Source: Trypanosoma brucei
Lineage: Eukaryota
Direction: 5' to 3'
Assembly: GCA_000002445.1 (NCBI GenBank)
Contig: CM000208.1
Coordinates: 1,696,001-1,760,000 of the forward strand
Length of the DNA stretch: 64,000 bases
Made by a program: the position numbers and the translations under genes. The notes beneath the pieces were generated by a model, which saw only the letters and a program-made list of their open reading frames with translations, had not been told where the DNA came from and ran no database searches. This document shows, in pieces, positions 1,621 through 44,937 of the stretch (the first letter of the stretch is position 1; every line of letters starts with the position of its first letter).

Positions 1621-1725
1621 TAATCAAACAAATAAGATATATTGCAAGTGTACGCAATTGCTATCCAGCAACAAAGGGCTATAGACACTATTATCTCAGT
1701 GATAAGGTATTGTTTATTTCTGAAG

Positions 1726-3760: not shown

Positions 3761-3812
3761 TCATTTCCTATTTCCTTTCCTCCTCCATCATTTTCCATTT
3801 TCTCTGTTTTTT
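3761..3812 (+). promoter_or_regulatory. Polypyrimidine tract (candidate splice acceptor) upstream of CTL copy 3
   Basis: This is the same CT-rich element as 1570–1620, repeated as part of the 2.2-kb tandem unit. Confidence 0.45.
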
Positions 3813-3916
3813 AATCAAACAAATAAGATATATTGCAAGTGTACGCAATTGCTATCCAGCAACAAAGGGCTATAGACACTATTATCTCAGTGATAAGGTA
3901 TTGTTTATTTCTGAAG

Positions 3917-5470: not shown

Positions 5471-6107
5471 AACTTCTTAAGCTCATGCATATAAGGAGGA
5501 TATGTGTTTGTCTCTCTTCTGCAAAAACTTTCCCTCCCATACCCAATTTCGCACACTCGCACCGTGTGAAGAAGAGTCAAATATCTTTTGTTTTTGATTC
5601 ACTATATATAATGCACTGAAGCGTGTGTTATGTATGCAAATAAATTGATAACATCGCTGACTCTTCTTTTTGTTCTATTATATTACTCTGTTCGATTTGC
5701 TCTTGACTATTTTGTATTTTCTTTCCGTTTCATGTGATGGATGCGAGGGACATAACCACAACATATTGAATGTGTCGCGGTGTAAACTGCTCTGTTGTGA
5801 GCGGTCAGTATTGAGTTAATATTTTTGTTCCGTGTGTTGAGGAAGTTGAATAGAGTCCTGATGCAGTCCACTCATGCGGTAATAGGAGTGACATTCCAAT
5901 GTTTGTACATTATTTGTGTCGTTTTAAATTTATTACGTCTTTTTTTTTTTTGTGTGTGTGTGTGCTTCTTGTCTTTCTGATGTTGTGGTGATGTCTTCTA
6001 TCTGTTTTTTTTTCAGTTTCTATTCATTGCTTAATATTGTTTTTTTACTTCTTTTTTATTGTTGGTGTAGATACGGATTGTAGAAGTCGTGTTGTTGGTC
6101 TGCCTGA

Positions 6108-15274: not shown

Positions 15275-15644
15275 TCGCTGAAGATGAACACAGGAAAGGC
15301 TGAAGGAGGATTATTTTCATTCGTCCTTGCTTCGCTGGTCTTCCCATCCAGCCATTGGGGACACATTTTCTGGTCGTTTTGGGGCCTCTTACCAGTTGCC
15401 ATGCACTTTCTTTTTTTTTTTTTCACTGCTGTCTTTTGTCTGCGTTGATTGCTACAGATCATTGTATAGTTCATCTGAGTGAGGTGCCGCGTTTGTTCGT
15501 TTGTTTTCTTGATGGGATGTGTAAAGGGTGTTCCATATCACCTCCCTGAGCCCCTGTTCGTCCAGTGGAAGGGGCTACTCGAAGAATGTGGGTCTTTCTC
15601 TCGATCTTCCATTAAATTATGCCAGCACAATGCCATTGTCATTT

Positions 15645-15680
15645 TTACTCCCCTTTATTCTCTCAGTTCTTTCTTTTTTT
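15645..15680 (+). promoter_or_regulatory. Polypyrimidine tract and AG (candidate splice acceptor) upstream of DRG gene
   Basis: 'ctttattctctcagttctttcttttttttcccacag' lies immediately before the DRG ATG at 15738. Confidence 0.5.
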
Positions 15681-15737
15681 TCCCACAGGTAAGTCATTGG
15701 CTCCCGTGATTAGCAGCAAGCTGCCGGGGCGGAGGTC

Positions 15738-16844
15738 ATGTCCAATTTGCAGAAGATAAATGACATCGAGGCAGAGATCGCGCGGACGCAGAAGAACAAA
15801 GCGACGATGGCGCATCTTTGCCAACTGAAGGCCCGTCTTGCACAGCTGAAGCGCGAACTCATCGCCTCTGAGTCAAAGAAAGGAGGCGCAAAGGGTGAAG
15901 GTTTTGATGTGCAGAAGACTGGAGACGCCCGCATCGGTTTCATCGGGTTCCCTTCCGTGGGGAAGTCTACTCTTCTCACTAAACTCACATCCACACATTC
16001 CGAAGTGGCAGCGTACGAGTTCACTACGCTCACTTGTGTGCCCGGTGTTGTGAGCTATCGCGGTGCGAAGCTTCAAATGCTTGATTTACCAGGAATTATT
16101 GAGGGTGCTAAGGATGGTAAAGGTCGAGGTCGACAAGTTATTGCTGTTGCACGTACCTGCTCCCTTATTCTTATTGTGCTTGACATCGCGAAACCGCTTC
16201 AGCACAAACTTATCATTGAGCGTGAGCTTGATGGATTCGGCATCCGCCTGAACAAGAAACCACCCAACATCGATATCCGGAAGAAGGACCGTGGTGGTAT
16301 TAGTATCTCTTCTACATGTCCATTAACCCACCTTGACAATGAAACCATTAAAACGATACTTGGTGAGTATCGCATGAGTAACGCGGACGTTATGTTGCGC
16401 GGGGATTATACGGCAGATGAATTAATTGACGCGATTGAGGGAAACCGTATTTATATTCCTTGTATTTATGTTCTTAACAAAATCGATCAGATCAGTATAG
16501 AGGAGCTTGATATTGTCTCCCGCATCCCACACAACTGCCCCATCAGTGCACACCACTCGTGGAACATCGATGGACTTTTGGAGTGTATATGGGACCACCT
16601 GAACTTCATTCGTCTCTACACGAAACCGCGTGGGCAGGTGCCCGACTACGACGAGCCGGTTATCCTCAAAAAGGCGCCACAACCCACGGTGGAGCGGTTT
16701 TGCCTGCGGTTGCATCGCCAGATGATGAAGAGTTTCAAGCACGCGTGGGTTTGGGGAGCCAGCGTGAAGCATCAACCGCAACGCGTAGGGAAGGACCATC
16801 TTCTTGAGGATGAGGATGTGGTGCAGGTTGTGAAGAAGGTTTAG
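15738..16844 (+). CDS. DRG1: Developmentally regulated GTP-binding protein 1 (Obg-family GTPase)
   Basis: The sequence is near-colinear with DRG1 as I remember it: '[30 protein letters not shown]', '[19 protein letters not shown]', '[16 protein letters not shown]', '[34 protein letters not shown]', '[24 protein letters not shown]' and '[18 protein letters not shown]'. Length is 368 aa. Confidence 0.92.
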
Positions 16845-28447: not shown

Positions 28448-29545
28448 ATGATATTTTTACTGTTCATAAGCTTTATTGGTTGGGTACTCTGGTCCCTGTA
28501 CTCCCTCTTGTCGTACCGCCGCGTGTCTGTAGCGGGGAAGACTGTGGTGATTACAGGCGGCTCCGTAGGCATTGGAAAGCACCTTGCGCTTCATTTCCTT
28601 CGGCTTGGCGCGACCGTGCATGTATGGGACGACAACAAGGAGAAACTGTCACAGTTGTCTAAGGAGGCACTGCTGATTCCCTCTCCTCGGCCAACCAAAA
28701 GTGCAAACTGTGACACAGAAGGGTTAACGGAAACGAGCGCAAACGAGCTTGAGGGTAACGACTGCTTGAAGACAGTTGTTGTTGATTTGTCCAATCGGTT
28801 TCATCTGCACCGTCTAGTGAAGCAGGTTGGAACCGTCCATATCGTCGTTAATGCGGCACTAAATGTGAGCAGCAAGGCGTTTTTGGACCATGCTGACAAC
28901 GCTATTGAACGCATCCTGCACGTCAACGCTTTGTGCCCCCTTATCCTCGCAAGAGCCTTCCTCCCGGCGATGTTGGAGCGTCGGGACGGGTACTTCGTCA
29001 CTATTACGGATGCGAACGGGTTGCTGGGAAACGCGTCACAGCCGGATTTCGCTGCCTCACAATGGGCGGCCGTTGGTGCGCACGAGAGCATCCAAATGCT
29101 AATTAGAGAAAATGGATGCTGCGGCAAGGTTCGTACGACATTGTTATGTCCGTACAATGTTGTGAGTAGTCAACCAACGTTACTACGGACACCATCACCG
29201 TTCTCTTCTTCTAGAGTAATGAACACAGCAGACGCGGCAAACACCGCAGAGGGGCAGTCAGTAAACACCATAAGGAGGTCTCGTATTCTGGGTTACTTCC
29301 TTTCAATCTTTAGGCGCCCTGTTACCCCGGAGGAGGCGGCAGAGGCCTGCGTTTGGGCCATCACACACGGTGTGGAACGGCTGTATATCCCGTACAGCCT
29401 GCTGTTCCTGACCCTTTTCAGGTTTTTACCGGTTCCGTGGTTTATGTGGGTGATTTCCCCGTCCACCCAAAGTACCAATGTAGAGACCAGCAAGGGGAAT
29501 TGTCCAAGCGAAAGTGACAGTAGCAGGAGTAGTTCGGAGAAATGA
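28448..29545 (+). CDS. Membrane-anchored short-chain dehydrogenase/reductase (SDR) family protein
   Basis: There is an N-terminal hydrophobic anchor (IFLLFISFIGWVLWSLYSLL), then the Rossmann motif 'GKTVVITGGSVGIGKHLA' (TGxxxGxG), and an NAALN-like 'VVNAALNVS'. The catalytic Tyr/Lys region is less clear. An Ser-rich C-terminal tail follows. Confidence 0.65.
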   Translation: MIFLLFISFIGWVLWSLYSLLSYRRVSVAGKTVVITGGSVGIGKHLALHFLRLGATVHVWDDNKEKLSQLSKEALLIPSPRPTKSANCDTEGLTETSANELEGNDCLKTVVVDLSNRFHLHRLVKQVGTVHIVVNAALNVSSKAFLDHADNAIERILHVNALCPLILARAFLPAMLERRDGYFVTITDANGLLGNASQPDFAASQWAAVGAHESIQMLIRENGCCGKVRTTLLCPYNVVSSQPTLLRTPSPFSSSRVMNTADAANTAEGQSVNTIRRSRILGYFLSIFRRPVTPEEAAEACVWAITHGVERLYIPYSLLFLTLFRFLPVPWFMWVISPSTQSTNVETSKGNCPSESDSSRSSSEK

Positions 29546-30540
29546 GCAAGCAACTTCTGCTCCCACTACGTTGAGATCTGTCGTTGTTGTGTCTTTGGCT
29601 GTGATAATTTGGTTGGTCGTGCAATGGCTGGTGCAGTTGGTTTCGTATTTCAGTGTGGGTTTGGGGGAAATAGATGATGTTGCAGGACGTTTTTTTTTTT
29701 GTATTTACAAGTGATTGGGAATACTTCGACCAATATTTATCTCTTCCGACAGGGTTATCGACGAGAGGCGACGGGCATGAATCTTGTGGCCACGAGTAGT
29801 TGCTTTTTTATCCTTTGGTTGTCCTTAAGAGCGTATGTGGCAGTCTAAGTGCTCTTTCACTTTCGATTTGCATGGGCTTTTCAGCTCCACAAATTTCTTT
29901 TTCTTTTATATAAATGTCGGGGATCACATGGAGAAGGATGGCGACGATGAGCGATTGCGTTCGTATCCTGCGTTGGTGGTTATTCAATTTACAACTGGAT
30001 TTATGGCTAGTGCATGTACCCTGATGTGGCTCGTGGTGGCGTGGGAGTTGTTCACATTAGGGCCAATGAATTTGTTAATAGCCGTGCGCGGAAGCACGTA
30101 TCGTTTACTCCGATCTTTCGAGTGCATATGTGCTGTATTGCTGAAAAGGATGGATATGTGTTTGATTTAGGTTTAGATGGACTAGGGTCATTTCCGTACC
30201 GCGGTAGTTGGGGGGATGGGCTCTCACCTCACTTTGGAGTGTGTTTTATTGTTCTATCCTTTACTGATGCAGTGACTTTTTAAAATCCTTCCCCTATCGT
30301 TTTTCTTTTCGTTGCAGTTAGAGGTGAAGTCGCAGTCCTTTCGTTTGTTTTGCCGTCACGTGGGGTAAACATGAGAGAGCTGCGCACGGAGAGCTTGGTT
30401 GATGTTTGCCACGTGTTGTTTTCCCATCTGCGTGGGAAGCTAATACTTGGTGAAAGTGGGGTACATGAGCATGGGGAAAGAGGCATTAGGTATGGCATGT
30501 GTAGAGCTGCACTTTGGTGTATACTTGAAGCCCAGTCTGC

Positions 30541-30580
30541 GAGTGTGTGTGTGTGTGTGTATGTGTGTGTGTGTGTGCTT
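30541..30580. repeat. (TG)n microsatellite
   Basis: 'gagtgtgtgtgtgtgtgtgtatgtgtgtgtgtgtgtgc' lies upstream of GAPDH. Confidence 0.9.
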
Positions 30581-30725
30581 TCTTTGTTAATTTTGGCTCC
30601 ATTTTTTCTTTTTCTTTTTTTTCATTGCATCCTTCCGAAACGTGTGCACTGGTGTCTGCACACACGTTTGGCACCTTGTGGCTGTGGGGAAGATTCCATA
30701 ATTTGACAGCTCCAAAAACAATTAA

Positions 30726-31748
<1,023 letters not shown>

Positions 31749-32367
31749 GAAAGTGGGCTTTTAGCCACTTCTTTTCTTTTTTGTTGCGTTTTACCCCCTA
31801 CTCATCAAGGTAAAATGCTCTCGCTTCAAACATTCAACCCGAAAGCAACCACGACGAGTGCCAATAGGAGATTGGCCGGGGGAAGCAGGAGGTACTTATA
31901 TCTTTTTCAATTCAACAAATTTATGGGGATATAACGCGCAATTTGTGGAGTTCTGTGACACAATTAAAAGGGGTCAGTTTTTTTTGTTTTTCTCTTGCAT
32001 CAAACAATACCCTCCAGGAAAATTAAAGCGGCGGGAGATTATAGCTAAGTGACTTCACAGAGGCACCAAAGGATGCCGTTAGCACAAAAAAACAGATTTC
32101 ATATGTACTACATGTCACACGAAAAAAAAAGAGAGTTAATTTCAGGAGTAGTATACTAAAAGAGCAGCCAAAAAACCAGAATAAAATGAGGAAACTTTTG
32201 ATACAAACACAAGAAAAAGTTTGTACGCCATTATTTGCTTAAATTTATCAAACATCAGATACAACCCGTTAGTATTAAACCCAGCCTGCGACAATTGCAA
32301 CACAACATTTAAAAATGTTCTCTCCTTATTTCATAACGAAAAGTGAAGTGCACAACACAGCACCAAC

Positions 32368-32682
32368 GCTGATAGAACATCAGGCAGCAAGGGTGACGCT
32401 ACTGCCAAATGCGCCATAAGTGATGCCTACACGAGGAGTGCCATTAAGGCTTTTGCCTCCAACTTTCCAGAGGAACTGAACCGCGTTTTCATAGCCCATG
32501 GGTTGCTTGACGAGAACGTTCACTTCTGTCACACGAGCGTTGTGGTTAATGCCATGATCGACGCGGGCAAACCGTGCTGCAGCGTTGTTTACCCTGGTGA
32601 GCGCCACTCCCTTCGGAAGAAGAAGGCATCGCGACTACACCATGACGCGATGCTCGCAAAGACACTTATGGAGGTGCTTTAA
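32368..32682 (+). pseudogene. Relic 3'-terminal fragment (last ~100 codons) of the DPP8-like serine peptidase gene, a duplicate of 42103–42417
   Basis: Nucleotides 32368–32682 are essentially identical to the last 315 nt of the peptidase CDS at 39865–42417 (…DGTSGSKGDATAKCAISDAY…LAKTLMEVL*). Upstream of 32368 the similarity stops and there is no ORF continuation. Confidence 0.8.
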
Positions 32683-34960
32683 TTGTGGACTACTTGCGTT
32701 GTGTAGTGTACTGGTAGCGGTTGCTTAATTACGAGGGAAACATGCTTGTTGCACATCTGTGTGGCTGGGGATGTGCTTGACCAATAATGATGATAACATC
32801 TGCGGCAGTGCTCGCGTGCACTTTAATTTATTTTTGTATGGGAAGAGTCACACACCATTTCTACCTTCCCTGCCTTCCGTGCTACAGTAGTTGTACCCGT
32901 TTCCGCTGTGCTGCAACCAATATGTTCATTTCACTATGCATTTCCAATACACACACACACACATGCACATACATTTTCCTTCTAGTATATGTACCGTAGC
33001 ACCACAACGAATGCCCACCACCCTTGTGAGAATGATGAGATTGCCATCATACTATTGGAAGACGAGTCTGAACCCTGATGCATTTTATCATGCGGCACTG
33101 ACGATCTTACATTGCGGTTAGTTGTGATCCCCTTGCCCATGTGTTTTTGTATGCTGCTTGCAGGAACGTGGCAGGCCACCGAGGTCACACTCGTGCTTCG
33201 CGTGGTTCAACAACATGGTCCCAGATTGTAGGTTCTTTGTTACTGGTGTGTATGATGAGAAACCTATTTTTATGTAACTCGGGAGAACTGAGCATATTAC
33301 CTGATGAGTAAACAATCAATCGTTAGATAGTAGCACTGATGTTACCTCTTGGTTTTATGTGTGTTGTAACTTTCCACTGTTGTCATTATCATCCCCTTTA
33401 ATAGCGAGTGGTCTTTGTGTGCATCTCCGCAAACCACTCGTCTACACCGGGGGAAAGATAAACGAGTGGAATGTTGTTAGTGTTGTGTGTCTGTGTCCGT
33501 CGTACTAGTAAAGGATGATGAGGATGCGGCCACCCCACGCGACGTGATGCGGTGTGTTGTTGACACTGCAGGCGTGTAGTTTCCCCTCCGCTGCCGTTGC
33601 AAAAGCAAACCCATTTTGGGCAACATACGCAGCCGCGCGCCACAAGACGCCTCCACCGCTCGACGGGGTGCCGCCATGACGCGGGTCCCGAGCCAAAGTC
33701 CCTCGCCCGAATTTCCGAAGGCAGTGAGTGCCTCGCGTGGGGAGACCTGCGCGCAGTAAAACCTCGTGCCGCTGGCGGTGCGGGGGCCACCGGCTGTGGT
33801 GGTTGATCCCCTCTGGTGGATCCCACAGCAGCAACTACGCGGGCCGTACTTTCGTCGGTGCGAGACTCCCCACCCGGTGGTATGAATGGCGGGCACCACT
33901 GAGTACACGTATAGCCATGAGCGGCATGTGCAGAAGAGGGCTTACAAAGGAGGCAGCGCGAGCGAGCGAATGGGTAACACTGGCGCGCTGCAGAGAAAGC
34001 AGCATCATTTCACCGCATCCGTTTGCGGGCGTGTGGTGCGCACCCGCTGACTCGCATATGCGTTCACATTCACCTCCTCCTTCTTTTCTCATTTTTATCC
34101 CCTACTTGAGAACAGATACAAACTACCCCACCTTGCCATACCCCTTCACACACCTATTATGTATTGTACCTGCACCATCACGTGATGAGCATTCAATTCA
34201 CATCGCGACACACCGATGATTCAAATGAGTGAGCTACGAATGGAATAAATTAAATCGAGAAAGAACAGCTGAGATGCCTACGTGCTTGTGCGCTTGTGCT
34301 ACTTCCCCTCTTGTAGTCCCCCTTCTATACCTGTGTCGTCGTCATTCCATCTTAATCGAAGGTGATGTCTGTTCCTGATGACGAGCACTCATTTCAAGCT
34401 GCGCGAGCATAAGCGTGTTGCTCCGTGGTCGGGTGACGTGCGAGACACCGCTCACACCCTATTACTGTGATGGGTGCCCACTAGCCTTGTGAGAATGATG
34501 AGATTGCCATCATACTATTGGAAGACGAGTCTGAACCCTGATGCATTTTATCATGCGGCACTGACGATCTTACATTGCGGTTAGTTGTGATCCCCTTGCC
34601 CATGTGTTTTTGTATGCTGCTTGCAGGAACGTGGCAGGCTACCGAGGTCACACTCGTGCTTCGCGTGGTTCAACAACATGGTCCCAGATTGTAGGTTCTT
34701 TGTTACTGGTGTGTATGATGAGAAACCTATTTTTATGTAACTCGGGAGAACTGAGCATATTACCTGATGAGTAAACAATCAATCGTTAGATAGTAGCACT
34801 GATGTTACCTCTTGGTTTTATGTGTGTTGTAACTTTCCACTGTTGTCATTATCATCCCCTTTAATAGCGAGTGGTCTTTGTGTGCATCTCCGCAAACCAC
34901 TCGTCTACACCAGGGGAAAGATAAACGAGTGGAATGTTGTTAGTGTTGTGTGTCTCTGTG
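32368..34960 (+). repeat. Segmental duplication copy 1: peptidase 3' fragment + direct repeat A (33012–33493) + GC-rich non-coding core B (33494–34467) + direct repeat A' (34468–34953)
   Basis: The block is repeated at 42103–44343 at roughly 99% identity; the ORF track shows matching spurious ORFs at 32380/42115, 33398/43133, 33728/43463 and so on. A and A' are ~99% identical to each other (spurious ORFs 33118–33315 and 34581–34778 differ by 1 aa). Confidence 0.9.
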
Positions 34961-35599
34961 CTTTGAGTTGCCTCCGGTGTTCTTAACCTCAGACTCTGCT
35001 CTTACAGTTTCCGGTTTATCGTTTTTTTTCCTTTTGCCTTCATGTAAATATCTTTTTTTTTATCCTCTTGTGTGAACTTTGTACGGATGCTTTCCATCAC
35101 GGTACAACATAAGTGAGGTGTGTATTTTGTGATGTAATGTGGTTCTCGCGAGTGACGACTGGCCGTTGACCGGTTTGATCATAATAGCGAGTACATTAGC
35201 GCTTCATGATGTTTGTCTTTGCCCTGACGGTGTGGCACTGCAGAACGGGACAAGCTAACGTATCTGTGCTATGTTTTTGTCTGTACGTGCATATAAGATT
35301 TGTTTACCCGACGTTATATATTTGTTTGTGTTCGTTATTGTACACGTGTCTCTTCGCTGCTTGCACGATCCTCTTGCTACAAGAGCGGACGACCGTAGCT
35401 GCATCGGTAATAACTCCAACTGCTTTACCTCACTTTTCTGTTCCTTGTGTGGTAAGCAAACTGGCAAAGGTCTTAGCGGTTCGTGTGATTAGCAACGAAT
35501 CAGTAGCGATAGCCACCACCGTATCGTTTCGAATAGACACACGGCGAAAGGTGAAGGGACGTGTGTTACATTGAGTAAAATTGCAGAGGCACAGTATCG

Positions 35600-36685
35600 T
35601 TGATTATGTCGGCCGGATCTCGTGGCCCACTTTCCCTGCTCATTGCCCGTGAACGTGATGCCAATGGTGTGAATGGCGATGTGAATGCAACGGCTGGACG
35701 CCTGCGTGACCGATACGATGGGAAGGGTGCCTCCGCCAGTGAGCGACGGCAGGATGCGACATCGCTGACCAACGAGTACTACGATATCGTTACAGATTTC
35801 TATGAATACGGTTGGGGGCAAAACTTCCACTTTGCTCCTCGGTACATGAATGAGACGTTCTACGAATCACTCGCACGGTATGAGTACTTTCTTGCGTACC
35901 ATGCTCAGTTCAAACCGACGGACACTGTGCTAGACGTTGGCTGCGGGATTGGTGGGCCAGCACGAAACATGGTACGGTTCACATCGTGCAACGTGATGGG
36001 TGTAAATAATAATGAGTATCAAATAAATCGCGCGCGGCAGCACGATTCCCGCTACGGGATGAGCGGTAAAATTAACTACACTAAGACCGACTTCTGTAAC
36101 ATGTGCTTTGGCGACAACGAGTTCGACGGAGCATACGCCATCGAGGCGACATGCCACTCAGAGAGTAAGGTAAAGTGCTATAGTGAAGTGTTTCGCGCTA
36201 TCAAACCTGGTGCCTACTTTATGCTGTACGAGTGGTGTTTGACGGACCTGTATGACCCGGCAAATGAGGAACACCAGCGTGTCCGGCATGGTATCGAACT
36301 TGGCGACGGTCTTCCTGAACTCGACACGATGCGGCAGGTTGTCGCAGCGGTAAAGGCCGCCGGTTTCGTTGTGGAAGAGAGCTTTGACATGGCGGAACGA
36401 TTCGAAAGTGGCGAGCCGAAGAGCGTCCCGTGGTATGAGCCACTGCAGGGGAGTTACACGTCGCTGAGTGGACTTCGGGCGACCCCTGCAGGGCGCTGGT
36501 TGACGAGTGTAACATGTCGTTTGCTCGAGGCTGTGCGCCTCGCACCGGCAGGTACATGTAAGGCGACAGAGATCCTCGAAGAAGGAGCGGTGAACCTTGT
36601 CAAGGGGGGCGAACTTGGGATATTCACGCCATCCTTCTTTGTGAAGGCGCGTAAACCGCGTCTTGGGGAAGAGCTGTCGTGCTAA
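35600..36685 (+). CDS. SMT: Sterol 24-C-methyltransferase (ERG6/SMT)
   Basis: 'YYDIVTDFYEYGWGQNFHFAP' is an SMT hallmark. The SAM-binding motif I 'VLDVGCGIGGP' and the sterol-MT C-terminal domain (YEWCLTDLYDP, ...GDGLPEL) are both present. Length is 361 aa. Confidence 0.9.
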   Translation: MIMSAGSRGPLSLLIARERDANGVNGDVNATAGRLRDRYDGKGASASERRQDATSLTNEYYDIVTDFYEYGWGQNFHFAPRYMNETFYESLARYEYFLAYHAQFKPTDTVLDVGCGIGGPARNMVRFTSCNVMGVNNNEYQINRARQHDSRYGMSGKINYTKTDFCNMCFGDNEFDGAYAIEATCHSESKVKCYSEVFRAIKPGAYFMLYEWCLTDLYDPANEEHQRVRHGIELGDGLPELDTMRQVVAAVKAAGFVVEESFDMAERFESGEPKSVPWYEPLQGSYTSLSGLRATPAGRWLTSVTCRLLEAVRLAPAGTCKATEILEEGAVNLVKGGELGIFTPSFFVKARKPRLGEELSC

Positions 36686-38147
36686 CTGTGGCCGGGGACT
36701 ATTGGTGTTTTCTTTAGAGGGTAGCAGTCTCATTTGCTCCATATGTGAGAGTGCCCTTCAGCTTCATCTCGGCACAGAGGCCGCACGCTGTGAAGTAGTG
36801 CTTGTTTGGCAGGAAGGGGAGCGGTCAGTTTTGTTGCGGTCGACGTGGTGGTGGGTGTAACCGCTGTACGTATCAGTTAGCGTATTTTTAACCATATATT
36901 CCCCCTATTTCTCTATACTGTGAAGCACACACGTGCGCGGACACACTAATTATTATACGCACGCATATACGAGGCGTTACGGTGTATCGCGTTCCACCAC
37001 TTGCGCGTGACGGGACCCTTTGATCGTATTTAAATGCTGGTGTCTTCCACATACTCCTTCCTTCAGTCTGCCTTCAACTCCGGTGAGGCGGCTGTGACTT
37101 GCGTGAATGCGAGTGAGAGTGTGTTATGAACAGCAACGGACGGAATGAAGTTACTTGCATCCTGGTCAATACTGGACAGATGTGTGCCGATGTTCCGGCC
37201 TCGCCCCGGGTGTGGGTCGTTGACGGCACGAGTGGACGGGCGTGCCGCCGCCATTTGCGTGTCTTCCTTGTTCTTAATTTTCTCCGTTATTTTATATTTA
37301 TTTGTTAGCAATGGATTTCGGTGGTGATCGGTACGCGCGCGAACGAATATGTAATCCGCTGTTATTATTTGTTTTTGTTTTCGTTTTATTTTACCGGACG
37401 CACGGTGAGAGTGGTATGGCTGCGTTCTACACCCCACGATGTGTGAAAACGATATGCAGACCTGAACAGCTTTGCGGTGCGAAGTCCTGCAGCTCACCTA
37501 TGACTGTTGGTAGGCGTACGCACGGTTGTAAAAGTGTCACAAGGTTTGTTTATCGTGGCGGAGTCGATGGTAGAACGACCGCAGCGTGCCTTCGGCCATT
37601 TGCGTCATTGTGCATGCTTGGGTGGGCATGAGAGGTGTGAGTCCTCTTGGGGAGACGTGTGCTTGGCAGAGGCCTCTCTGCAATGAATTTACCAACAGTG
37701 TTATTTTCCCGTAGGTTTTGAGCCCTGTTGCACTTCTCTGACCGGCTTTCATCCCCTTAACCGCTACCCTCTTCCGTTTTGTAACTGAATCAGTATGTGT
37801 GCAGCACCATCTACATGGATCTGGTGTCTGTATATTCACACATATGCTTCCTTCCTCCTAATTGTTGATTGTTCTTCCGTTTGCGGGGTGGCATTTGGCT
37901 ATTGGGTGTGAAACACCGTGCCCGCAAGTATGTTGCTGATTTTTTCCCAACTACCTGCACCCTATTCAAACTGTTCTTTTCTGTTACTTTTCCATATGCT
38001 CCCTTTGTAGCCATTGAACGGTAAGCGTAAACAGCGTTGGCGCGTGCTTCCTCCAGAATCATTTATCTAATAAGGTCGGGGGTGTGAAGAAACATAAGTG
38101 GTTACTGACCCTTAACGCAGTGTCTTTGCAGTGAGCCTCACTGAAGC

Positions 38148-39110
38148 ATGGTAACACCCGAGCAAGCTGCCCTTATCGAGGGGGCGTTCCGTTCGATGGA
38201 CCGTGACGGTACGGGGCTGGTGCGACTTGAGGATATTTTCCGTGTCTTCGATGACTCGAGACATCCTCGTGTTCGCGACGGTGAGCTGGCTCCAGCAGCG
38301 ACGCGTGACATGCTGATGCACCAGTTTGGCGCAACCGCGCAGGCACACGGTGGCGTCTCGTTTGATGTGTTCATGCGCTTCCACGAACGTATGGCCGAAG
38401 ATGCAGCTGTTGCGAAGGTGAATGATAAAGAGTTGTTCCTCACGGACACCATAATTGGTGTCTGGCGCCTGGGCACGCTCCTTCAACCGACCCTCATTCG
38501 ACCTCTCTTTCCCGTTAATGTTCGTCCAAGCGGATTATACGCAACTCAGTACATGTCACTTGTGTGGGTAGACGAAGTCGCTGGTCCGGGGTCGTTCGTT
38601 GTACACGTCGTTCGCGATGTTGTGCGGCCGATATTCTCCCGGGGTGACCTACCGCCACAGTTACGTGGCATGTTCGCCTACCCGACAGAACTTGCAGGCA
38701 TGAAGATTATCGAGGAGCGCTTGCAGATCGCCACCCAACGATGGCTGGACTTTGTGTGGGAATACGAAGAAGGCAAGCACGCTGCCGTTCCTGGCATTAT
38801 ATCGGCTCGCGTCGATCCCGATACGCTTCCACAGTACCTCCGTGACATGATTGTGGAACATGATGTGGCAAAAGCGATACCTTCGCTGTTCTTTGTGCCA
38901 ACATCTGTGGCTGTTAACCCCATGTACAAGCGTTCAAGCGAGGAGTATGGCTACGGAGTTCCTGAAGAAGTAAAGCGTATGAGCAGGTGGAAGGACCTTA
39001 CCTATTCTGGTCAGGCGTGTGGGCTGATATACCATGGCCGCGTGGGAAAGTTCACAAGGGAACGGCTGAACGCGCCCGTACAGGATGTGGCTAGTGCAAT
39101 GAACATTTGA
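38148..39110 (+). CDS. Hypothetical protein with one N-terminal EF-hand-like loop
   Basis: This is a 320-aa ORF. 'FRSMDRDGTGLVRLEDIFRVFD' fits the EF-hand loop pattern (DxDGxGxIxxxE). The remainder is unrecognised. Confidence 0.4.
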   Translation: MVTPEQAALIEGAFRSMDRDGTGLVRLEDIFRVFDDSRHPRVRDGELAPAATRDMLMHQFGATAQAHGGVSFDVFMRFHERMAEDAAVAKVNDKELFLTDTIIGVWRLGTLLQPTLIRPLFPVNVRPSGLYATQYMSLVWVDEVAGPGSFVVHVVRDVVRPIFSRGDLPPQLRGMFAYPTELAGMKIIEERLQIATQRWLDFVWEYEEGKHAAVPGIISARVDPDTLPQYLRDMIVEHDVAKAIPSLFFVPTSVAVNPMYKRSSEEYGYGVPEEVKRMSRWKDLTYSGQACGLIYHGRVGKFTRERLNAPVQDVASAMNI

Positions 39111-39864
39111 GGGACGCAATTCCGCTTTCCAACGTTTTGTTGCTTATGTATATGCTGGTTGCGGTGGTGTGTGTAATTTCCATTCGCTTATACACGGGCC
39201 GCTTGGTTGCTTTGGGAGAGACGGTTGACTTTCTTTACCGTGATGTTGCCCGCCGTTATAGTAACCCTACATTTTTCAATTGTTGTACCCTTCTGTTTTT
39301 ACCCCGCCATTATTTTAGTACCCATGCTATTGAGAGTTTTACTGGAATGGGAGTAATGGGGAAGTGTAGCTTAATATTTCTATACTTTCTCAAAAAATGA
39401 TGGACGTATTTGATTGATGTAGTGTCGATTTACATTGTGCCATTGCCGCGGTTTTATGAGCTGATCACAATCCCATTGTTTGTAGGTTGTGGAAGACCAG
39501 CGGCGGTCAGACAAAGGCGGTCGATGGTGGAACTCGTGGGCATGTCTACGGGTTGTGTAGTACGTGGGTGCGCAAGTGGGCATTACTCGTTGTTCTTATA
39601 CTTTGTGTTCTACCTTTGTGAAGTATGCCCCTTAAACAGCTTACCTGTAGCTCTATGCATCTATAGCTGTCAGTTCGCCACCCTTGCCAGCTTGGTGTGA
39701 GCATCTTTTCTTACTTGCAACAGCTTGTGTCTTGCGTTTTTCCTCTAACCTCCGCATCCCTAACCCTTAATGAGTGGGTATCTACTTTTTTGTTTTTAGT
39801 AACGAGCTTCATCACCTAGAAATAGTCCACCTCACGTAGTCAGTCAGGAAGAGAGGGGTGTAAA

Positions 39865-42417
39865 ATGCCGACCTTGCCTTTGTCGAAATATATTGATGAA
39901 CTAAAAGCTCTTGAGGGGCTCCTCGCTGTAGATGGGAAGCCTCGTATGTTGAAGTTTGTTGGTGATCAGCTGTATTGGCTGCAGGGTATGGATCAGGAAC
40001 TTTACAGTGTAAATATTGCAGATCACAACGCAACCCCGAGTCGCGTCATTGATCGCTGTCGGAAAGGTTGCACAGCTGCAGAAGGCAAGGAAGGTTCCAC
40101 TGTTGAGACAAAGGAGGAGGAGTTGCTGCGGGAGCGGCTGCGATCTCGCGTGACGGGCATCAGCAGCTACCGTGTACGGTGCAGGGACGGTGCTGTTTTC
40201 TTCACAAGTGGAGCAAACATATTTCTATACCGCCCCGCAAGCGGCAAACCACCGCTGAAAGTACTTGACTATATCGGTGATGAGGAACTGAAGCAACGCT
40301 TCTCCTCAGAGAAGAAACCATTTCTCTGCATTGAATACTTTTCCCACTTGGCGAATGATGCGGGTGCATGTGATTCAACCAAGGAGCGTGCCGACGTGAT
40401 CTCTTTTGTGTACAGCAATAACTTGTATATTGCGACCGTTGTGGAAGGTAGTGGTGAGGCCAGCCACTCAAGGGAACCACCCTTGAGGGTGAATGTGGAA
40501 TGCGTGACAACTTTCGGCGACGAGTTACACAGTTGTGGGGACGCCGACTACATTATCCAGGAGGAATTCGGTCGTTACACCGGGCACTACGCCACAGCTG
40601 AATATGTGCTGTTCAGCTATACAGACGTGTCCATGCTGCGCGAGGTGATGCTAATTGACGGTTCGACTGACTCTGGTGTGGAAAAGATGCCGTACTGCCG
40701 TGTTGGTGACCCGAATGCCCGCACTGTGCTCGTAGTGTACGAAAGGCGGACAAAGCGTTATCGTGTTGTCCCGAGCAGTGCTATTGCAGCCATTGCACCG
40801 TGGGCGGAGTACATGCCTCGGTTTGGGTTTAAGGACGAACACACCATTTACTTTTCTGTTCTCAGTCGCACGCAGGAGAAAATGTCTCTCCTTTCGTGCC
40901 GTATTAACTCTCTACCTGTTGTTGATGCGGAAGCACTTGCATCGTGCTTTTCCGAAGCAGCGCGTGACACTGATGTCGCAGCGGTGGCTGCAGGAACAAC
41001 ACTGGCTACCCGTGCGGCGACAGTCAATCTCACCACAGAGTGGCACCAGCATATACCGTGGGCATGGGTAGATGTCCAACCCGGTGTCGCACTTCACCTT
41101 TGCGGCAAGTATGAAGTGCTCGTTCGCCACGCCAATGAGAGTGAGAGTGCGCACAGTCATGTGTACGCCCGTGCTCAAGGGGGTGATGAGGGTTCGTGGC
41201 GACCACTTACCTGTGGCGCTTGGAACGTGAGAGCTGGAGGCCTTATAGTGAAGGACGACAGGGTTTTCTTCCTTGCTAATGCAAGAAACAGGCTGGAGAG
41301 TGTGCTATACAGCGTTGTGATAAACCTGGATGCAGGTCCTGTTTCTGCCGAGGAGCTGACACAGCTAACACCCTCCGGCGAGCACGTGTACTCTTTCGCA
41401 GTGTTGAACAATACACTTTGCTATGTGTCGAGCACTGCGACCACACCAGCAGAGCTTCACATCTCCTCAATAAACAACCCTGGAAGCCGCTGGGTCGTTC
41501 CGACGCGGCATCTGTGGGATGATACCAGCGAAAAGGCAGTCACCCCACGTACAACGCTCGAGGGACTCACCGTCCCGCACATTATCAACATCGTGAACCG
41601 CCGTGGTGTTCCACTCAGTGGCCGACTGTTTGTATCTCCTCACGCGGCACTAGGTAAGCTGAACCCTTTAGCAATGTATATCTATGGTGGTCCCCACGCA
41701 CAACTCGTGTACGACAGTGACTTCGACGGTGCCTGCAAGCCAATTTTCCAGATGCTGGCGAGCTTTGGTATATCCGTACTTGTCGCTGACGGTCAAATGA
41801 GCAATGCGAATGGCCTACGGGACCATAGCATCTGCAAGCACAGCATGGGGAGCTTTGAGACCTCCGATTACGTGGATTGGGTGCGGCACATGACAAACTG
41901 CAAGGAACTACCGTGTGGGTTTTGTGCGGATCCTGAACGGGTTGCCATCTTCGGCTGGTCGTATGGAGGTTATGCAACACTGCTTGCAATGTCGCAGGCT
42001 CCAGATGTGTTTAAGATAGGGTTTGCAGGGGCACCTGTGGGGGATTGGACTCTCTATGACACTGGATACACAGAGCGCTATATGGGTCTGCTGCACACCA
42101 ACGCTGATGGAACATCAGGCAGCAAGGGTGACGCTACTGCCAAATGCGCCATAAGTGATGCCTACACGAGGAGTGCCATTAAGGCTTTTGCCTCCAACTT
42201 TCCAGAGGAACTGAACCGCGTTTTCATAGCCCATGGGTTGCTTGACGAGAACGTTCACTTCTGTCACACGAGCGTTGTGGTTAATGCCATGATCGACGCG
42301 GGCAAACCGTGCTGCAGCGTTGTTTACCCTGGTGAGCGCCACTCCCTTCGGAAGAAGAAGGCATCGCGACTACACCATGACGCGATGCTCGCAAAGACAC
42401 TTATGGAGGTGCTTTAA
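39865..42417 (+). CDS. Dipeptidyl-peptidase 8-like serine peptidase (prolyl oligopeptidase family S9, alpha/beta-hydrolase C-terminal domain)
   Basis: This 850-aa ORF has a beta-propeller-like N-terminal two thirds and a C-terminal catalytic domain. The catalytic domain carries the nucleophile elbow 'IFGWSYGGYATLLAMSQ' (GWSYGG), a downstream Asp (HGLLDENVHFCHT) and a His (PGERHSL) in the S9 order Ser–Asp–His. Confidence 0.8.
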   Translation: MPTLPLSKYIDELKALEGLLAVDGKPRMLKFVGDQLYWLQGMDQELYSVNIADHNATPSRVIDRCRKGCTAAEGKEGSTVETKEEELLRERLRSRVTGISSYRVRCRDGAVFFTSGANIFLYRPASGKPPLKVLDYIGDEELKQRFSSEKKPFLCIEYFSHLANDAGACDSTKERADVISFVYSNNLYIATVVEGSGEASHSREPPLRVNVECVTTFGDELHSCGDADYIIQEEFGRYTGHYATAEYVLFSYTDVSMLREVMLIDGSTDSGVEKMPYCRVGDPNARTVLVVYERRTKRYRVVPSSAIAAIAPWAEYMPRFGFKDEHTIYFSVLSRTQEKMSLLSCRINSLPVVDAEALASCFSEAARDTDVAAVAAGTTLATRAATVNLTTEWHQHIPWAWVDVQPGVALHLCGKYEVLVRHANESESAHSHVYARAQGGDEGSWRPLTCGAWNVRAGGLIVKDDRVFFLANARNRLESVLYSVVINLDAGPVSAEELTQLTPSGEHVYSFAVLNNTLCYVSSTATTPAELHISSINNPGSRWVVPTRHLWDDTSEKAVTPRTTLEGLTVPHIINIVNRRGVPLSGRLFVSPHAALGKLNPLAMYIYGGPHAQLVYDSDFDGACKPIFQMLASFGISVLVADGQMSNANGLRDHSICKHSMGSFETSDYVDWVRHMTNCKELPCGFCADPERVAIFGWSYGGYATLLAMSQAPDVFKIGFAGAPVGDWTLYDTGYTERYMGLLHTNADGTSGSKGDATAKCAISDAYTRSAIKAFASNFPEELNRVFIAHGLLDENVHFCHTSVVVNAMIDAGKPCCSVVYPGERHSLRKKKASRLHHDAMLAKTLMEVL

Positions 42418-44343
42418 TTGTGGACTACTTGCGTTGTGTAGTGTACTGGTAGCGGTTGCTTAATTACGAGGGAAACATGCTTGTTGCACATCTGTGTGGC
42501 TGGGGATGTGTTTGACCAATAATGATGATAACATCTGCGGCAGTGCTCGCGTGCACTTTAATTTATTTTTGTATGGGAAGAGTCACACACCATTTCTACC
42601 TTCCCTGCCTTCCGTGCTACAGTAGTTGTACCCGTTTCCGCTGTGCTGCAACCAATATGTTCATTTCACTATGCATTTCCAATACACACACACACACATG
42701 CACATACATTTTCCTTCTAGTATATGTACCGTAGCACCACAACGAATGCCCACCACCCTTGTGAGAATGATGAGATTGCCATCATACTATTGGAAGACGA
42801 GTCTGAACCCTGATGCATTTTATCATGCGGCACTGACGATCTTACATTGCGGTTAGTTGTGATCCCCTTGCCCATGTGTTTTTGTATGCTGCTTGCAGGA
42901 ACGTGGCAGGCTACCGAGGTCACACTCGTGCTTCGCGTGGTTCAACAACATGGTCCCAGATTGTAGGTTCTTTGTTACTGGTGTGTATGATGAGAAACCT
43001 ATTTTTATGTAACTCGGGAGAACTGAGCATATTACCTGATGAGTAAACAATCAATCGTTAGATAGTAGCACTGATGTTACCTCTTGGTTTTATGTGTGTT
43101 GTAACTTTCCACTGTTGTCATTATCATCCCCTTTAATAGCGAGTGGTCTTTGTGTGCATCTCCGCAAACCACTCGTCTACACCGGGGGAAAGATAAACGA
43201 GTGGAATGTTGTTAGTGTTGTGTGTCTGTGTCCGTCGTACTAGTAAAGGATGATGAGGATGCGGCCACCCCACGCGACGTGATGCGGTGTGTTGTTGACA
43301 CTGCAGGCGTGTAGTTTCCCCTCCGCTGCCGTTGCAAAAGCAAACCCATTTTGGGCAACATACGCAGCCGCGCGCCACAAGACGCCTCCACCGCTCGACG
43401 GGGTGCCGCCATGACGCGGGTCCCGAGCCAAAGTCCCTCGCCCGAATTTCCGAAGGCAGTGAGTGCCTCGCGTGGGGAGACCTGCGCGCAGTAAAACCTC
43501 GTGCCGCTGGCGGTGCGGGGGCCACCGGCTGTGGTGGTTGATCCCCTCTGGTGGATCCCACAGCAGCAACTACGCGGGCCGTACTTTCGTCGGTGCGAGA
43601 CTCCCCACCCGGTGGTATGAATGGCGGGCACCACTGAGTACACGTATAGCCATGAGCGGCATGTGCAGAAGAGGGCTTACAAAGGAGGCAGCGCGAGCGA
43701 GCGAATGGGTAACACTGGCGCGCTGCAGAGAAAGCATCATCATTTCACCGCATCCGTTTGCGGGCGTGTGGTGCGCACCCGCTGACTCGCATATGCGTTC
43801 ACATTCACCTCCTCCTTCTTTTCTCATTTTTATCCCCTACTTGAGAACAGATACAAACTACCCCACCTTGCCATACCCCTTCACACGCCTATTATGTATT
43901 GTACCTGCACCATCACGTGATGAGCATTCAATTCACATCGCGACACACCGATGATTCAAATGAGTGAGCTACGAATGGAATAAATTAAATCGAGAAAGAA
44001 CAGCTGAGATGCCTACGTGCTTGTGCGCTTGTGCTACTTCCCCTCTTGTAGTCCCCCTTCTATACCTGTGTCGTCGTCATTCCATCTTAATCGAAGGTGA
44101 TGTCTGTTCCTGATGACGAGCACTCATTTCAAGCTGCGCGAGCATAAGCGTGTTGCTCCGTGGTCGGGTGACGTGCGAGACACCGCTCACACCCTATTAC
44201 TGTGATGGGTGCCCACTAGCCTTGTGAGAATGATGAGATTGCCATCATACTATTGGAAGACGAGTCTGAACCCTGATGCATTTTATCATGCGGCACTGAC
44301 GATCTTACATTGCGGTTAGTTGTGATCCCCTTGCCCATGTGTT
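42103..44343 (+). repeat. Segmental duplication copy 2: intact peptidase 3' end + A (42747–43228) + GC-rich core B (43229–44202) + truncated A' (44203–44343)
   Basis: This is a near-identical copy of 32368–34608, offset by 9735 bp. Similarity to copy 1 ends at ~44343, where unique sequence ('ttttatctctttgtgttttttttt') begins. Confidence 0.9.
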
Positions 44344-44382
44344 TTATCTCTTTGTGTTTTTTTTTGACATTAGTTTGTACGC

Positions 44383-44937
44383 ATGTCGTCTTTAGACTCT
44401 GTTAGAGAAGATATCCTCGATGTTTTTCATATTTTTGATGAAGACGGATCGGGCAGCATTACTATGCAAGAGCTCAAAAGGGCAATTTACACAATAACTG
44501 GAATTCGTATATCGCGTATTGATCTTTCCATACTGGTTCGGACATGTAAAGAAGAGATGTTGAAGGAGTCTGCCAGGAAATCGGAAGCTGGTGCTAATGT
44601 AGCTGGAAAAGCGGGGGAAAAGTTGTGGACACCTGAACCGGAGTCTGAGGTGAACACTGTTGATCCTCAGTTGTTTGCAGCTGTTGTGTTGAAGACGTTG
44701 AATAGACGAACGCAGGAGCAGGAACTGCTTTTTACCTTCCGTCTTCTCGAAGATAAGGATTATCCAGGTTTTATTACGAAAGATAGTTTGAAACGGGCAT
44801 CTGCAGATATTGACGAGCATTTGACAGATCAGGAGGTGAATGAGATGTTTGACAAACTTGTCACCGGGGTGTCCGCTGCTGCAATCGATTTTGTAACTTT
44901 TTCTTCGCTGATGGAAACACTACGAAAGTCGATTTAG
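44383..44937 (+). CDS. Small EF-hand calcium-binding-like protein
   Basis: A 184-aa ORF. 'FHIFDEDGSGSITMQELKRAI' is a canonical EF-hand loop, and there is a second degenerate EF-like region 'FRLLEDKDYPGFITKDSLKRA'. Confidence 0.5.
   Translation: MSSLDSVREDILDVFHIFDEDGSGSITMQELKRAIYTITGIRISRIDLSILVRTCKEEMLKESARKSEAGANVAGKAGEKLWTPEPESEVNTVDPQLFAAVVLKTLNRRTQEQELLFTFRLLEDKDYPGFITKDSLKRASADIDEHLTDQEVNEMFDKLVTGVSAAAIDFVTFSSLMETLRKSI

What the first reader, a model, noticed from the sequence alone, without database searches (positions are those of the whole stretch)
32368..44343. 9.7-kb segmental duplication leaves a relic peptidase 3' fragment downstream of GAPDH
Segment 32368–34608 is repeated 9735 bp downstream at 42103–44343. 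The upstream copy begins abruptly with the last 315 nt of the DPP8-like peptidase CDS and has no upstream gene body. This indicates one-and-a-quarter units of a tandem duplication whose full unit contains SMT, the EF-hand gene and the peptidase. I recall, without being able to verify, that T. brucei TREU927 carries two full SMT/peptidase units in this neighbourhood. This window has only one SMT, so it is either a deletion or contracted allele or a collapsed assembly.
Basis: partly seen in the sequence, partly recalled or inferred. Interest (0 to 1): 0.6.

Follow-up and report, generated by a model that had tools for sequence, protein, structure and literature searches.

The report
Known repeat locus, collapsed in assembly
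The 2.25-kb repeat and the orphan peptidase tail after GAPDH are real, old features of Trypanosoma brucei chromosome 10, made mostly of a known snoRNA/RNase MRP RNA gene cluster, and the single-unit layout here is most likely an early-assembly collapse that skips 17.6 kb including the base-J glucosyltransferase gene.

Summary
Observation confirmed. Window 32361-34610 equals 42096-44345 (2250 bp, 5 mismatches, no gaps, offset 9735), with sharp edges. The left copy starts with the last 322 nt of the DPP8-like peptidase CDS and has no gene body.

It carries the annotated TB10Cs1 snoRNA cluster plus an RNase MRP RNA gene. The nested 1463-bp period is the cluster unit.

The window is T. b. brucei TREU927 chromosome 10 in its early (GeneDB v4 / GenBank) version. 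Its proteins match EAN78102-EAN78105 exactly, and published v4 snoRNA coordinates map onto it by subtracting 1,696,000.

The full locus is seen in the T. b. equiperdum long-read assembly and in later TREU927 gene numbering (Tb927.10.6880-6970). It reads GAPDH-A0-JGT-SMT1-EF1-CulF-DPP8/A1-SMT2-EF2-DPP8/A2-caltractin.

The window jumps from A0 straight into unit 2, omitting 17.65 kb. The omitted TREU927 genes exist as Tb10.v4.0246-0249. An assembly collapse is therefore the best reading (about 0.85), and a real contracted haplotype is the rival (about 0.1).

The relic junction is shared with DAL972 and equiperdum, so it predates any contraction. Already known; low interest.

The parts
30753..31748 (+). 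Cytosolic GAPDH gene (Tb927.10.6880), left unique flank
   Evidence: Pfam Gp_dh_N/Gp_dh_C. Tb927.10.6880 = GAP in PMC6211221.
32361..34610 (+). Left copy of the 2250-bp direct repeat (block 'A')
   Evidence: 99.78% identical to 42096-44345. Sharp edges.
32361..32682 (+). Orphan 3' fragment of the DPP8-like peptidase CDS (1 nt + codons 745-850 + stop). No start codon, with an in-frame stop 5 codons upstream.
   Evidence: tblastn and translation. The same fragment lies at the same junction in the equiperdum and gambiense composites.
33012..34474 (+). One full 1463-bp unit of the TB10Cs1 small-RNA cluster: C4 33028-33104, H3 33160-33228, C1 33248-33342, H1 33389-33461, MRP RNA 33478-33998, C3 34178-34275, H2 34382-34448
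   Evidence: Rfam RF01522/RF01523/RF01524 hits far above gathering score. C and D boxes found for the three C/D genes. Published Tb927_10_v4 coordinates minus 1,696,000 (PMC3091756 supplements).
33478..33998 (+). RNase MRP RNA gene, copy 1
   Evidence: Coordinates from PMC3091756 Additional file 2, citing Barth et al. 2008. About 80% identity over about 390-480 nt to T. cruzi and T. melophagium, while the spacers do not align. Conserved P4-type helix AAGUCCCUC/GAGGGCUU. The reading frame is not conserved.
34475..35014 (+). Partial second cluster unit (C4 34491-34567, H3 34623-34691, C1 34711-34805, H1 34852-34924). It runs past the edge of the 2250-bp repeat.
35014..35022 (.). Unit-2-type junction. 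Here the ancestral unit has a 3.45-kb segment with the JGT (TAGT) gene, which is absent from the window.
   Evidence: Window 29025-35014 = L001 1-5961 and 35022-39357 = L001 9413-13753. Junction sequences. JGT is absent from all 64 kb.
35606..36685 (+). Sterol 24-C-methyltransferase, the only copy in the window
   Evidence: Pfam Sterol_MT_C. Exact match to EAN78102.1.
38148..39110 (+). 320-aa conserved protein (called EF-hand domain-containing by UniRef), unit-2 paralogue type
   Evidence: Exact match to EAN78103.1. Its C-terminal signature RERLN..VAS is shared with equiperdum unit 2. Tb10.v4.0248 and all unit-1 copies have RERRD..VGS.
39357..39395 (.). Unit-2-type junction with a 37-bp filler. 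Here the ancestral unit has a 4.5-kb segment with the cullin gene TbCul-F, which is absent from the window.
39865..42417 (+). DPP8-like S9 serine peptidase, full length
   Evidence: Pfam DPPIV_N + Peptidase_S9. 100% identical to EAN78104.1/XP_822932.1 of TREU927.
42096..44345 (+). Right copy of the 2250-bp repeat: peptidase tail, 3' flank, one cluster unit (C4 42763-42839, H3 42895-42963, C1 42983-43077, H1 43124-43196, MRP 43213-43733, C3 43913-44010, H2 44117-44183) plus a terminal C4 at 44226-44302
44383..44937 (+). Caltractin/centrin-like EF-hand gene, right unique flank. Its polypyrimidine tract and AG start right after the repeat edge.
   Evidence: Pfam EF-hand. Exact match to EAN78105.1, named 'caltractin, putative'. 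Sequence.

Best explanation
The window is T. b. brucei TREU927 chromosome 10 in its early (GeneDB v4 / GenBank) version.

The 2.25-kb direct repeat is a genuine block 'A'. Each copy holds the last 322 nt of the DPP8-like peptidase CDS, its 3' flank, and the TB10Cs1 small-RNA cluster (C/D snoRNAs C4, C1, C3; H/ACA snoRNAs H3, H1, H2; and the RNase MRP RNA gene).

The cluster's ancestral home is the peptidase-to-caltractin spacer. In the T. brucei lineage an extra copy, dragging the peptidase tail with it, came to lie just after GAPDH (A0).

I infer that unequal homologous recombination between these blocks then produced a second unit, which lost JGT and the cullin gene. The complete locus is GAPDH-A0-JGT-SMT1-EF1-CulF-DPP8/A1-SMT2-EF2-DPP8/A2-caltractin.

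The window runs from GAPDH/A0 straight into unit 2. This is the result expected when an assembler merges the 99%-identical A0 and A1 blocks (2.65 kb) and drops the 17.65 kb between them.

Shown: the repeat, its contents, the strain identity, the structure of the full locus in a relative, and the existence of the missing genes in TREU927. Inferred: that the join in the window is an assembly error rather than a real haplotype, and the order of the evolutionary events.
For: (a) Repeat and edges.

(b) Contents: Rfam TB10Cs1H1/H2/H3 at 87-97 bits against gathering scores of 45-50. C/D boxes. MRP RNA and 17 snoRNA genes in published Tb927_10_v4 coordinates fit the window after subtracting 1,696,000, including the 1463 and 9735 spacings.

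(c) Strain: the window's 320-aa protein, SMT and caltractin are exact matches to the consecutive TREU927 accessions EAN78103, EAN78102 and EAN78105, and its peptidase is 100% identical to EAN78104. EAN78103 and EAN78104 are recorded on a 4,054,025-bp contig.

(d) Full locus: in T. b. equiperdum GCA_003543875.1 a 43.5-kb composite without Ns has three A blocks and two units. Window 29025-35014 is collinear with its left part and 32361-54955 with its right part, with 17.65 kb skipped.

(e) The skipped genes are absent from all 64 kb. They exist in TREU927 as Tb10.v4.0246 (TAGT/JGT).0248 and .0249 (cullin), with SMT Q4FKJ2 between them.

(f) Later TREU927 IDs follow the two-unit order.6880 GAPDH.6900 JGT.6910 SMT.6930 TbCul-F.6940 DPP8.6950 SMT.6970 DPP8.

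(g) Paralogue signatures: the window's 320-aa gene is unit-2 type and Tb10.v4.0248 is unit-1 type, the same pairing as equiperdum units 2 and 1.

(h) Outgroups have a single JGT?-SMT-EF-cullin-peptidase-[cluster]-caltractin order.

(i) The short-read T. equiperdum OVI contigs break at the edges of these repeats.
Against: No reads or clone data for TREU927 were available, so a real single-unit haplotype in this diploid strain is not excluded. The 'Tb10.v4' contig could in principle be the other allele.

I did not see the later TREU927 chromosome sequence. Its two-unit layout is inferred from gene-ID order in papers.

The equiperdum chromosomes were ordered against TREU927 (PMC6395869). However, the stretch used here has no gaps.

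The DAL972 assembly has only unit 1, so copy number may really vary among T. brucei lineages, or that assembly is collapsed as well.

Variant analysis within block A could not locate a switch point.
Confidence: 0.85

Rival explanations
1. The window shows a real contracted allele. Homologous recombination between blocks A0 and A1 deleted 17.65 kb (JGT, SMT1, the 320-aa gene, TbCul-F and most of DPP8-1) on one TREU927 homologue. The early assembly happened to follow that homologue, and the Tb10.v4 contig is the other one.
For: The breakpoints lie inside 2.65 kb of about 99% identical direct repeats, which is what such a deletion would leave. Copy number differs between assemblies: DAL972 has one unit and equiperdum has two. 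The unit-1 genes of TREU927 were deposited on a separate contig. From my own knowledge, JGT loss is tolerated in cultured T. brucei.
Against: The later TREU927 gene numbering places both units in tandem on chromosome 10. PMC4376731 describes the two DPP8 genes as tandem copies. A collapse across the same repeats gives an identical sequence, so nothing in the window favours a real deletion. It would remove two genes that are syntenic and single-copy across trypanosomes.
Confidence: 0.1
2. One reading: the window holds one-and-a-quarter units of a simple SMT-EF-peptidase tandem duplication. The peptidase tail after GAPDH is the stump left when the upstream unit was truncated in this genome.
For: In isolation, the layout A-M-A with a 9735-bp offset looks like 1.23 tandem units.
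Against: The stump and its exact junction are present in DAL972 and equiperdum, where it is followed by JGT and a complete unit. It is therefore older than, and independent of, the window's single-unit state. The ancestral unit includes JGT and cullin. One tandem duplication gives exactly two units, not 1.23.
Confidence: 0.03
3. The single-unit layout is correct for T. brucei. The two-unit layouts (equiperdum assembly, later TREU927 numbering) are artefacts of stitching two haplotypes (a unit-1 type and a unit-2 type) in tandem.
For: DAL972 has only unit 1 and the window only unit 2. The equiperdum chromosomes were built with TREU927 as guide.
Against: The equiperdum stretch is continuous, has its own sequence variants, and contains the DPP8-1/A1/SMT2 junction on one gap-free stretch of that assembly. 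That same A-to-SMT junction (35014/35022) is also in the window, directly downstream of a peptidase tail.
Confidence: 0.02

Closest known systems
T. brucei TREU927 chromosome 10 locus Tb927.10.6880-Tb927.10.6970 in the later reference numbering (two SMT genes, two DPP8-like genes, JGT, TbCul-F)
   Same: Same strain and same genes. The window proteins are exact TREU927 accessions. Gene order matches where the window has sequence.
   Different: The window lacks the stretch that would carry .6900-.6940 (JGT, SMT1, 320-aa gene, TbCul-F, DPP8-1). One search shows JGT and cullin are absent from all 64 kb.
TB10Cs1 snoRNA cluster with the RNase MRP RNA gene (Rfam RF01522-RF01524; GeneDB Tb10_snoRNA_0001-0017; MRP RNA credited to Barth et al. 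2008 in PMC3091756)
   Same: It is this cluster. All annotated genes map onto both repeat copies with the published spacing. Tandem repetition of a cluster unit is typical of trypanosomatid snoRNA genes.
   Different: Nothing differs.
Collapsed near-identical repeats in early Sanger-era or short-read trypanosome assemblies
   Same: The join lies inside 2.65 kb of about 99% identical sequence. The excluded piece survives as a separate contig (Tb10.v4.0246-0249). The short-read OVI assembly breaks at the same repeat edges.
   Different: The collapse removed unique single-copy genes as well as duplicated ones, because the two units are unequal (17.65 kb against 9.74 kb).
Tandem SMT gene pairs in other trypanosomatids (T. 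cruzi here; from my own knowledge, the Leishmania SMT pair whose recombination is linked to amphotericin B resistance)
   Same: SMT is duplicated in the same syntenic neighbourhood. T. cruzi has two adjacent SMT genes upstream of the 321-aa gene.
   Different: In T. cruzi only SMT is duplicated locally. In T. brucei a multi-gene unit bounded by small-RNA clusters is duplicated. The events are independent.

Membership tests
TB10Cs1 snoRNA cluster | H/ACA snoRNAs TB10Cs1H1, H2 and H3 match the Rfam covariance models above gathering score | tested here: met
   87-97 bits against gathering scores of 45-50, eight hits in the window
TB10Cs1 snoRNA cluster | C/D snoRNAs with C box (RUGAUGA) and D box (CUGA) at the annotated positions of C1, C3 and C4 | tested here: met
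   Motif scan finds 33032-33101, 33252-33339, 34182-34272 and their repeat copies. These fall inside the published coordinates.
TB10Cs1 snoRNA cluster | Published genomic coordinates and unit spacing | tested here: met
   Tb927_10_v4 coordinates minus 1,696,000 reproduce the Rfam hits to within 1-6 nt (1-2 nt for H1 and H2, 6 nt at the 5' end of H3) and the 1463 and 9735 spacings (against 37)
RNase MRP RNA | Conserved CR-I/CR-V regions forming the P4 helix | tested here: met
   AAGUCCCUC pairs with GAGGGCUU and is invariant in T. brucei, T. cruzi and T. melophagium. Invariant pairs are not covariation evidence.
RNase MRP RNA | Match to Rfam RF00030 at gathering score | tested here: not met
   Only 8.8 bits (gathering score 50) over the CR-I region. 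The literature notes that trypanosomatid MRP RNA escapes general searches (PMC3091756). The identification rests on the published annotation.
RNase MRP RNA | Conserved as RNA rather than as protein across species | tested here: met
   nhmmer E of about 1e-60 to T. cruzi and T. melophagium copies. tblastn matches switch frame. 14 of 139 predicted pairs show compensatory changes, from only 3 sequences.
Assembly collapse across a repeat | The missing sequence exists elsewhere in data from the same strain | tested here: met
   TREU927 proteins Tb10.v4.0246.0248 and .0249, and SMT Q4FKJ2. Later IDs Tb927.10.6900-.6940.
Assembly collapse across a repeat | The false join lies within long near-identical repeats | tested here: met
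   A0 and A1 are 99.0% identical over 2666 bp in equiperdum
Assembly collapse across a repeat | Excess read depth over the merged repeat, and discordant clone or read pairs | not testable with these tools
   No reads available
Real deletion allele by recombination between direct repeats | The deleted genes are absent, or present at half dose, in that strain | tested here: inconclusive
   The genes are present in TREU927. Dose could not be measured.
Gene relic (truncated pseudogene) | Homology to only part of a parent gene, no start codon, and a fixed position in related genomes | tested here: met
   Codons 745-850 only, with a stop 5 codons upstream. Same junction in three T. brucei-group assemblies.

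The most novel reading that the evidence does not exclude
TREU927, or some T. brucei isolates, really carries a homologue on which recombination between the small-RNA-cluster blocks has removed JGT, one SMT, TbCul-F and one DPP8 gene. That would be a natural null allele of the base-J glucosyltransferase, and would make this locus a recurrent copy-number hotspot bounded by MRP RNA/snoRNA clusters.
Probability: 0.08. Interest if true: 0.4.

Novelty: already known. Interest (0 to 1): 0.13.

Why it matters
The main value is practical. Anyone using the GenBank/RefSeq-era TREU927 chromosome 10 will find JGT (base-J glucosyltransferase) and the cullin TbCul-F missing, and will see only one SMT and one DPP8-like gene here. 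This has already produced misleading labels: the DAL972 orthologues are named 'T. brucei spp.-specific protein'.

The locus also shows how a small-RNA gene cluster can act as a portable homology block that seeds a multi-gene duplication and confuses assemblers. It adds no new biology beyond what the later reference and the snoRNA literature already contain.

Tried and rejected
(1) Exact-sequence look-ups of the window's peptidase and 320-aa protein returned nothing. Cluster membership and BLASTP later showed both are TREU927 proteins, so the empty look-ups say nothing about rarity.

(2) I first labelled GCA_003543875.1 as Lister 427 from memory. One search shows it is T. b. equiperdum (DPX39_ tags), and I corrected this.

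(3) I tried to find a switch point between A0-like and A1-like sequence inside 32361-35014. The copies within each strain share strain-specific variants (concerted evolution or consensus), so no switch point could be placed.

(4) ORF 33728-34219 (163 aa), its twin at 43463-43954, and the antisense ORFs were considered as genes. I rejected them: no Pfam hit, they lie on the MRP RNA gene, and the frame is not conserved.

(5) The T. conorhini, T. theileri and Leishmania martiniquensis loci gave synteny but no cluster or MRP hits downstream of the peptidase. These are probably collapsed or cut contigs, or the sequence is too diverged.

(6) A literature search for the assembly accessions found nothing. 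The two JGT papers (PMC4206709, PMC4106341) are not held.

(7) The supplements of PMC6411936 gave no later-version coordinates for the cluster.
Full report
**Observation**

A self-comparison of the window shows that 32361-34610 and 42096-44345 are 2250 bp of direct repeat. They have 5 mismatches, no gaps and an offset of 9735 bp. Identity falls to background within a few bases at both ends.

The right copy begins 322 nt before the stop of an 850-aa DPPIV/S9-type peptidase gene (39865-42417). The left copy therefore starts with codons 745-850 of that gene. It differs by one amino acid, has an in-frame stop five codons upstream, and has no gene body. It lies 612 bp after the GAPDH stop codon (30753-31748).

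The window holds one sterol methyltransferase gene (35606-36685), one 320-aa gene (38148-39110) and one full peptidase gene. Its coordinates are a few bases too narrow.

**What the repeat contains**

There is a nested 485-bp repeat with a 1463-bp period. Translated searches with small 'proteins' annotated between the peptidase and caltractin genes of T. cruzi and T. melophagium hit this region in shifting frames. That pointed to conserved RNA rather than protein.

Rfam then found the H/ACA snoRNAs TB10Cs1H1, H2 and H3, eight hits at 87-97 bits against gathering scores of 45-50. A motif scan found three C/D snoRNAs per unit.

The supplements of PMC3091756 list GeneDB coordinates on Tb927_10_v4 for 17 TB10Cs1 snoRNA genes and two copies of the RNase MRP RNA gene. 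Subtracting 1,696,000 places every one of them on the window. The positions agree with the Rfam hits to within 1-6 nt (1-2 nt for H1 and H2, 6 nt at the 5' end of H3), and the 1463 and 9735 spacings are the same.

The cluster unit is C4-H3-C1-H1-MRP-C3-H2. The left block holds one unit plus C4-H3-C1-H1, reaching about 35014. The right block holds one unit plus C4.

The MRP assignment has independent support:
- About 80% identity over 390-480 nt to T. cruzi and T. melophagium.
- A conserved P4-type helix, AAGUCCCUC/GAGGGCUU.

The general Rfam MRP model does not reach its threshold.

TB10Cs1C4 and TB10Cs1C1 are experimentally characterised guides for LSU rRNA methylation and processing (PMC6411936). 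The repeated block is therefore mainly a functional small-RNA gene cluster, and the peptidase tail is a passenger.

**Where the window comes from**

Three window proteins are exact matches to TREU927 accessions:
- The 320-aa protein is EAN78103.1.
- SMT is EAN78102.1.
- The 184-aa EF-hand protein is EAN78105.1.

The peptidase is 100% identical to EAN78104.1. EAN78103.1 and EAN78104.1 are recorded on a 4,054,025-bp contig.

Together with the v4 coordinate match, this shows the window is TREU927 chromosome 10 in its early version, positions 1,696,001-1,760,000. The four consecutive accessions show that this version was annotated with a single unit.

**The full locus in relatives**

In T. b. equiperdum GCA_003543875.1 (DPX39_ tags; PacBio-based, PMC6395869), a gap-free 43.5-kb composite reads as follows:

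GAPDH - A0 - TAGT/JGT - SMT1 - 320aa - cullin - DPP8-1/A1 - SMT2 - 320aa - DPP8-2/A2 - caltractin

Window 29025-35014 is collinear with the left part. Window 32361-54955 is collinear with the part that starts at A1. The window therefore equals this locus minus 17.65 kb.

Unit 2 differs from unit 1 by two clean deletions. One removes the 3.45-kb JGT segment and the other the 4.5-kb cullin segment. Each has a short filler, and both junctions are shared by the window and equiperdum (window 35014/35022 and 39357/39395).

JGT and cullin are absent from all 64 kb of the window.

T. b. gambiense DAL972 has GAPDH - A0 (relic + C4-H3-C1-H1 only) - JGT - SMT - 320aa - cullin - DPP8/A - caltractin. That is unit 1 only.

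The GAPDH-flank|peptidase-tail junction is identical in all three genomes. The relic is therefore an old, fixed feature of the T. brucei group and not a by-product of the window's single-unit state.

**Outgroups**

T. cruzi, T. melophagium, T. vivax, T. conorhini and T. theileri each show one SMT(-SMT)-320aa-cullin-peptidase order. L. martiniquensis shows only the cullin-peptidase part.

In T. cruzi and T. melophagium, two to three units of the same snoRNA/MRP cluster (period 1419 and 1445 bp) lie between the peptidase and caltractin genes.

Unit 1 therefore has the ancestral gene order, and the cluster's ancestral site is the peptidase-caltractin spacer. The copies after GAPDH and between DPP8-1 and SMT2 are T. 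brucei-lineage additions.

A plausible history, which is inferred, has three steps:
- A copy of the peptidase tail plus cluster was placed upstream of JGT.
- Unequal recombination between that block and the original one duplicated the intervening genes.
- The second unit then lost JGT and cullin.

Copies of A within a strain share strain-specific variants. This points to ongoing homogenisation, or, in the window, to a consensus of merged copies.

**Why the window has one unit**

The genes missing from the window exist in TREU927:
- CAJ16957.1 is Tb10.v4.0246 (TET-associated glycosyltransferase).
- CAJ16959.1 is Tb10.v4.0248 (320-aa protein).
- CAJ16960.1 is Tb10.v4.0249 (cullin).
- SMT Q4FKJ2 lies between them.

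They are the same genes, in the same order, as the skipped 17.65 kb.

Tb10.v4.0248 carries the unit-1 signature (RERRD..VGS, DASSH). The window's copy carries the unit-2 signature (RERLN..VAS). Equiperdum units 1 and 2 show the same pairing.

The later TREU927 identifiers follow the two-unit order:
- .6880 GAPDH
- .6900 JGT
- .6910 and .6950 SMT
- .6930 TbCul-F
- .6940 and .6970 'two identical tandem copies' of DPP8

The A0 and A1 blocks are 99% identical over 2.65 kb, which is enough to mislead a Sanger-era assembly. The short-read T. equiperdum OVI contigs end at the edges of these repeats.

I therefore rate an assembly collapse at about 0.85. A real contracted homologue in this diploid strain would give the same sequence and cannot be excluded without reads (about 0.1).

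**Verdict**

The repeat and the relic are real. Their nature (a known snoRNA/MRP RNA cluster with a hitch-hiking gene tail) and the two-unit locus are already documented. The single-unit layout most likely reflects the assembly version. Interest is low. The practical caveat is that this version of the chromosome lacks JGT and TbCul-F.

Noticed in passing
window 33478-33998 and 43213-43733: Spurious ORFs overlie the RNase MRP RNA gene: 163 aa at 33728-34219 and 43463-43954, plus several antisense ORFs. The homologous stretch is annotated as protein-coding in T. melophagium (three 168-aa 'genes') and T. cruzi (a 152-aa 'gene' over H2/C4).
   Followed up: yes
window 33511-33565 (about 33514-33522, GGATGATGAGG): A C-box-like motif at the 5' end of the annotated 521-nt MRP RNA is conserved in T. 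brucei, T. cruzi and T. melophagium. It also gives a weak sub-threshold C/D hit (sR35, E = 0.7). No TB10Cs1C2 appears in the published v4 list, so a further C/D snoRNA might sit here.
   Followed up: partly
window 60-5900: Three tandem choline-transporter-like genes (Pfam Choline_transpo) form an array with a period of about 2.19 kb and 95-99% identity. This is another place where copy number could be mis-assembled.
   Followed up: partly
window 32949-32964 (and 42684-42699): A (CA)n microsatellite in the peptidase 3' flank varies in length between the A copies and between strains. The DAL972 right-hand copy is the longest.
   Followed up: partly
L002 about 14260-16810 (T. b. equiperdum, second DPP8 copy; composite 28487-31035): The second DPP8-like copy has a frameshift near codon 726 and was not called as a gene. 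This is either a long-read indel error or a real pseudogene.
   Followed up: partly
L003 6214-8181 and 14643-18143 (DAL972): The JGT (TAGT) and cullin orthologues are named 'T. brucei spp.-specific protein' in DAL972, although both are syntenic across trypanosomes. The label probably arose because the genes were missing from the TREU927 chromosome used for comparison.
   Followed up: partly
L003 about 4755-5960 (DAL972 block A0): The DAL972 copy after GAPDH lacks the MRP-C3-H2 part of the cluster (a 1463-bp difference). That assembly therefore has one MRP RNA gene, against two in the window and three in equiperdum.
   Followed up: yes
L018 1-2388 (T. cruzi): T. cruzi has two adjacent SMT genes upstream of the 321-aa gene. 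This is an independent local SMT duplication in the same syntenic block.
   Followed up: no
window 42306 (= 32571 in the left copy): Both window copies have A at this site. The functional peptidase copies of equiperdum and DAL972 have G, and their relics have A. This suggests gene conversion from the relic into the TREU927 peptidase gene, or a consensus of merged copies.
   Followed up: partly
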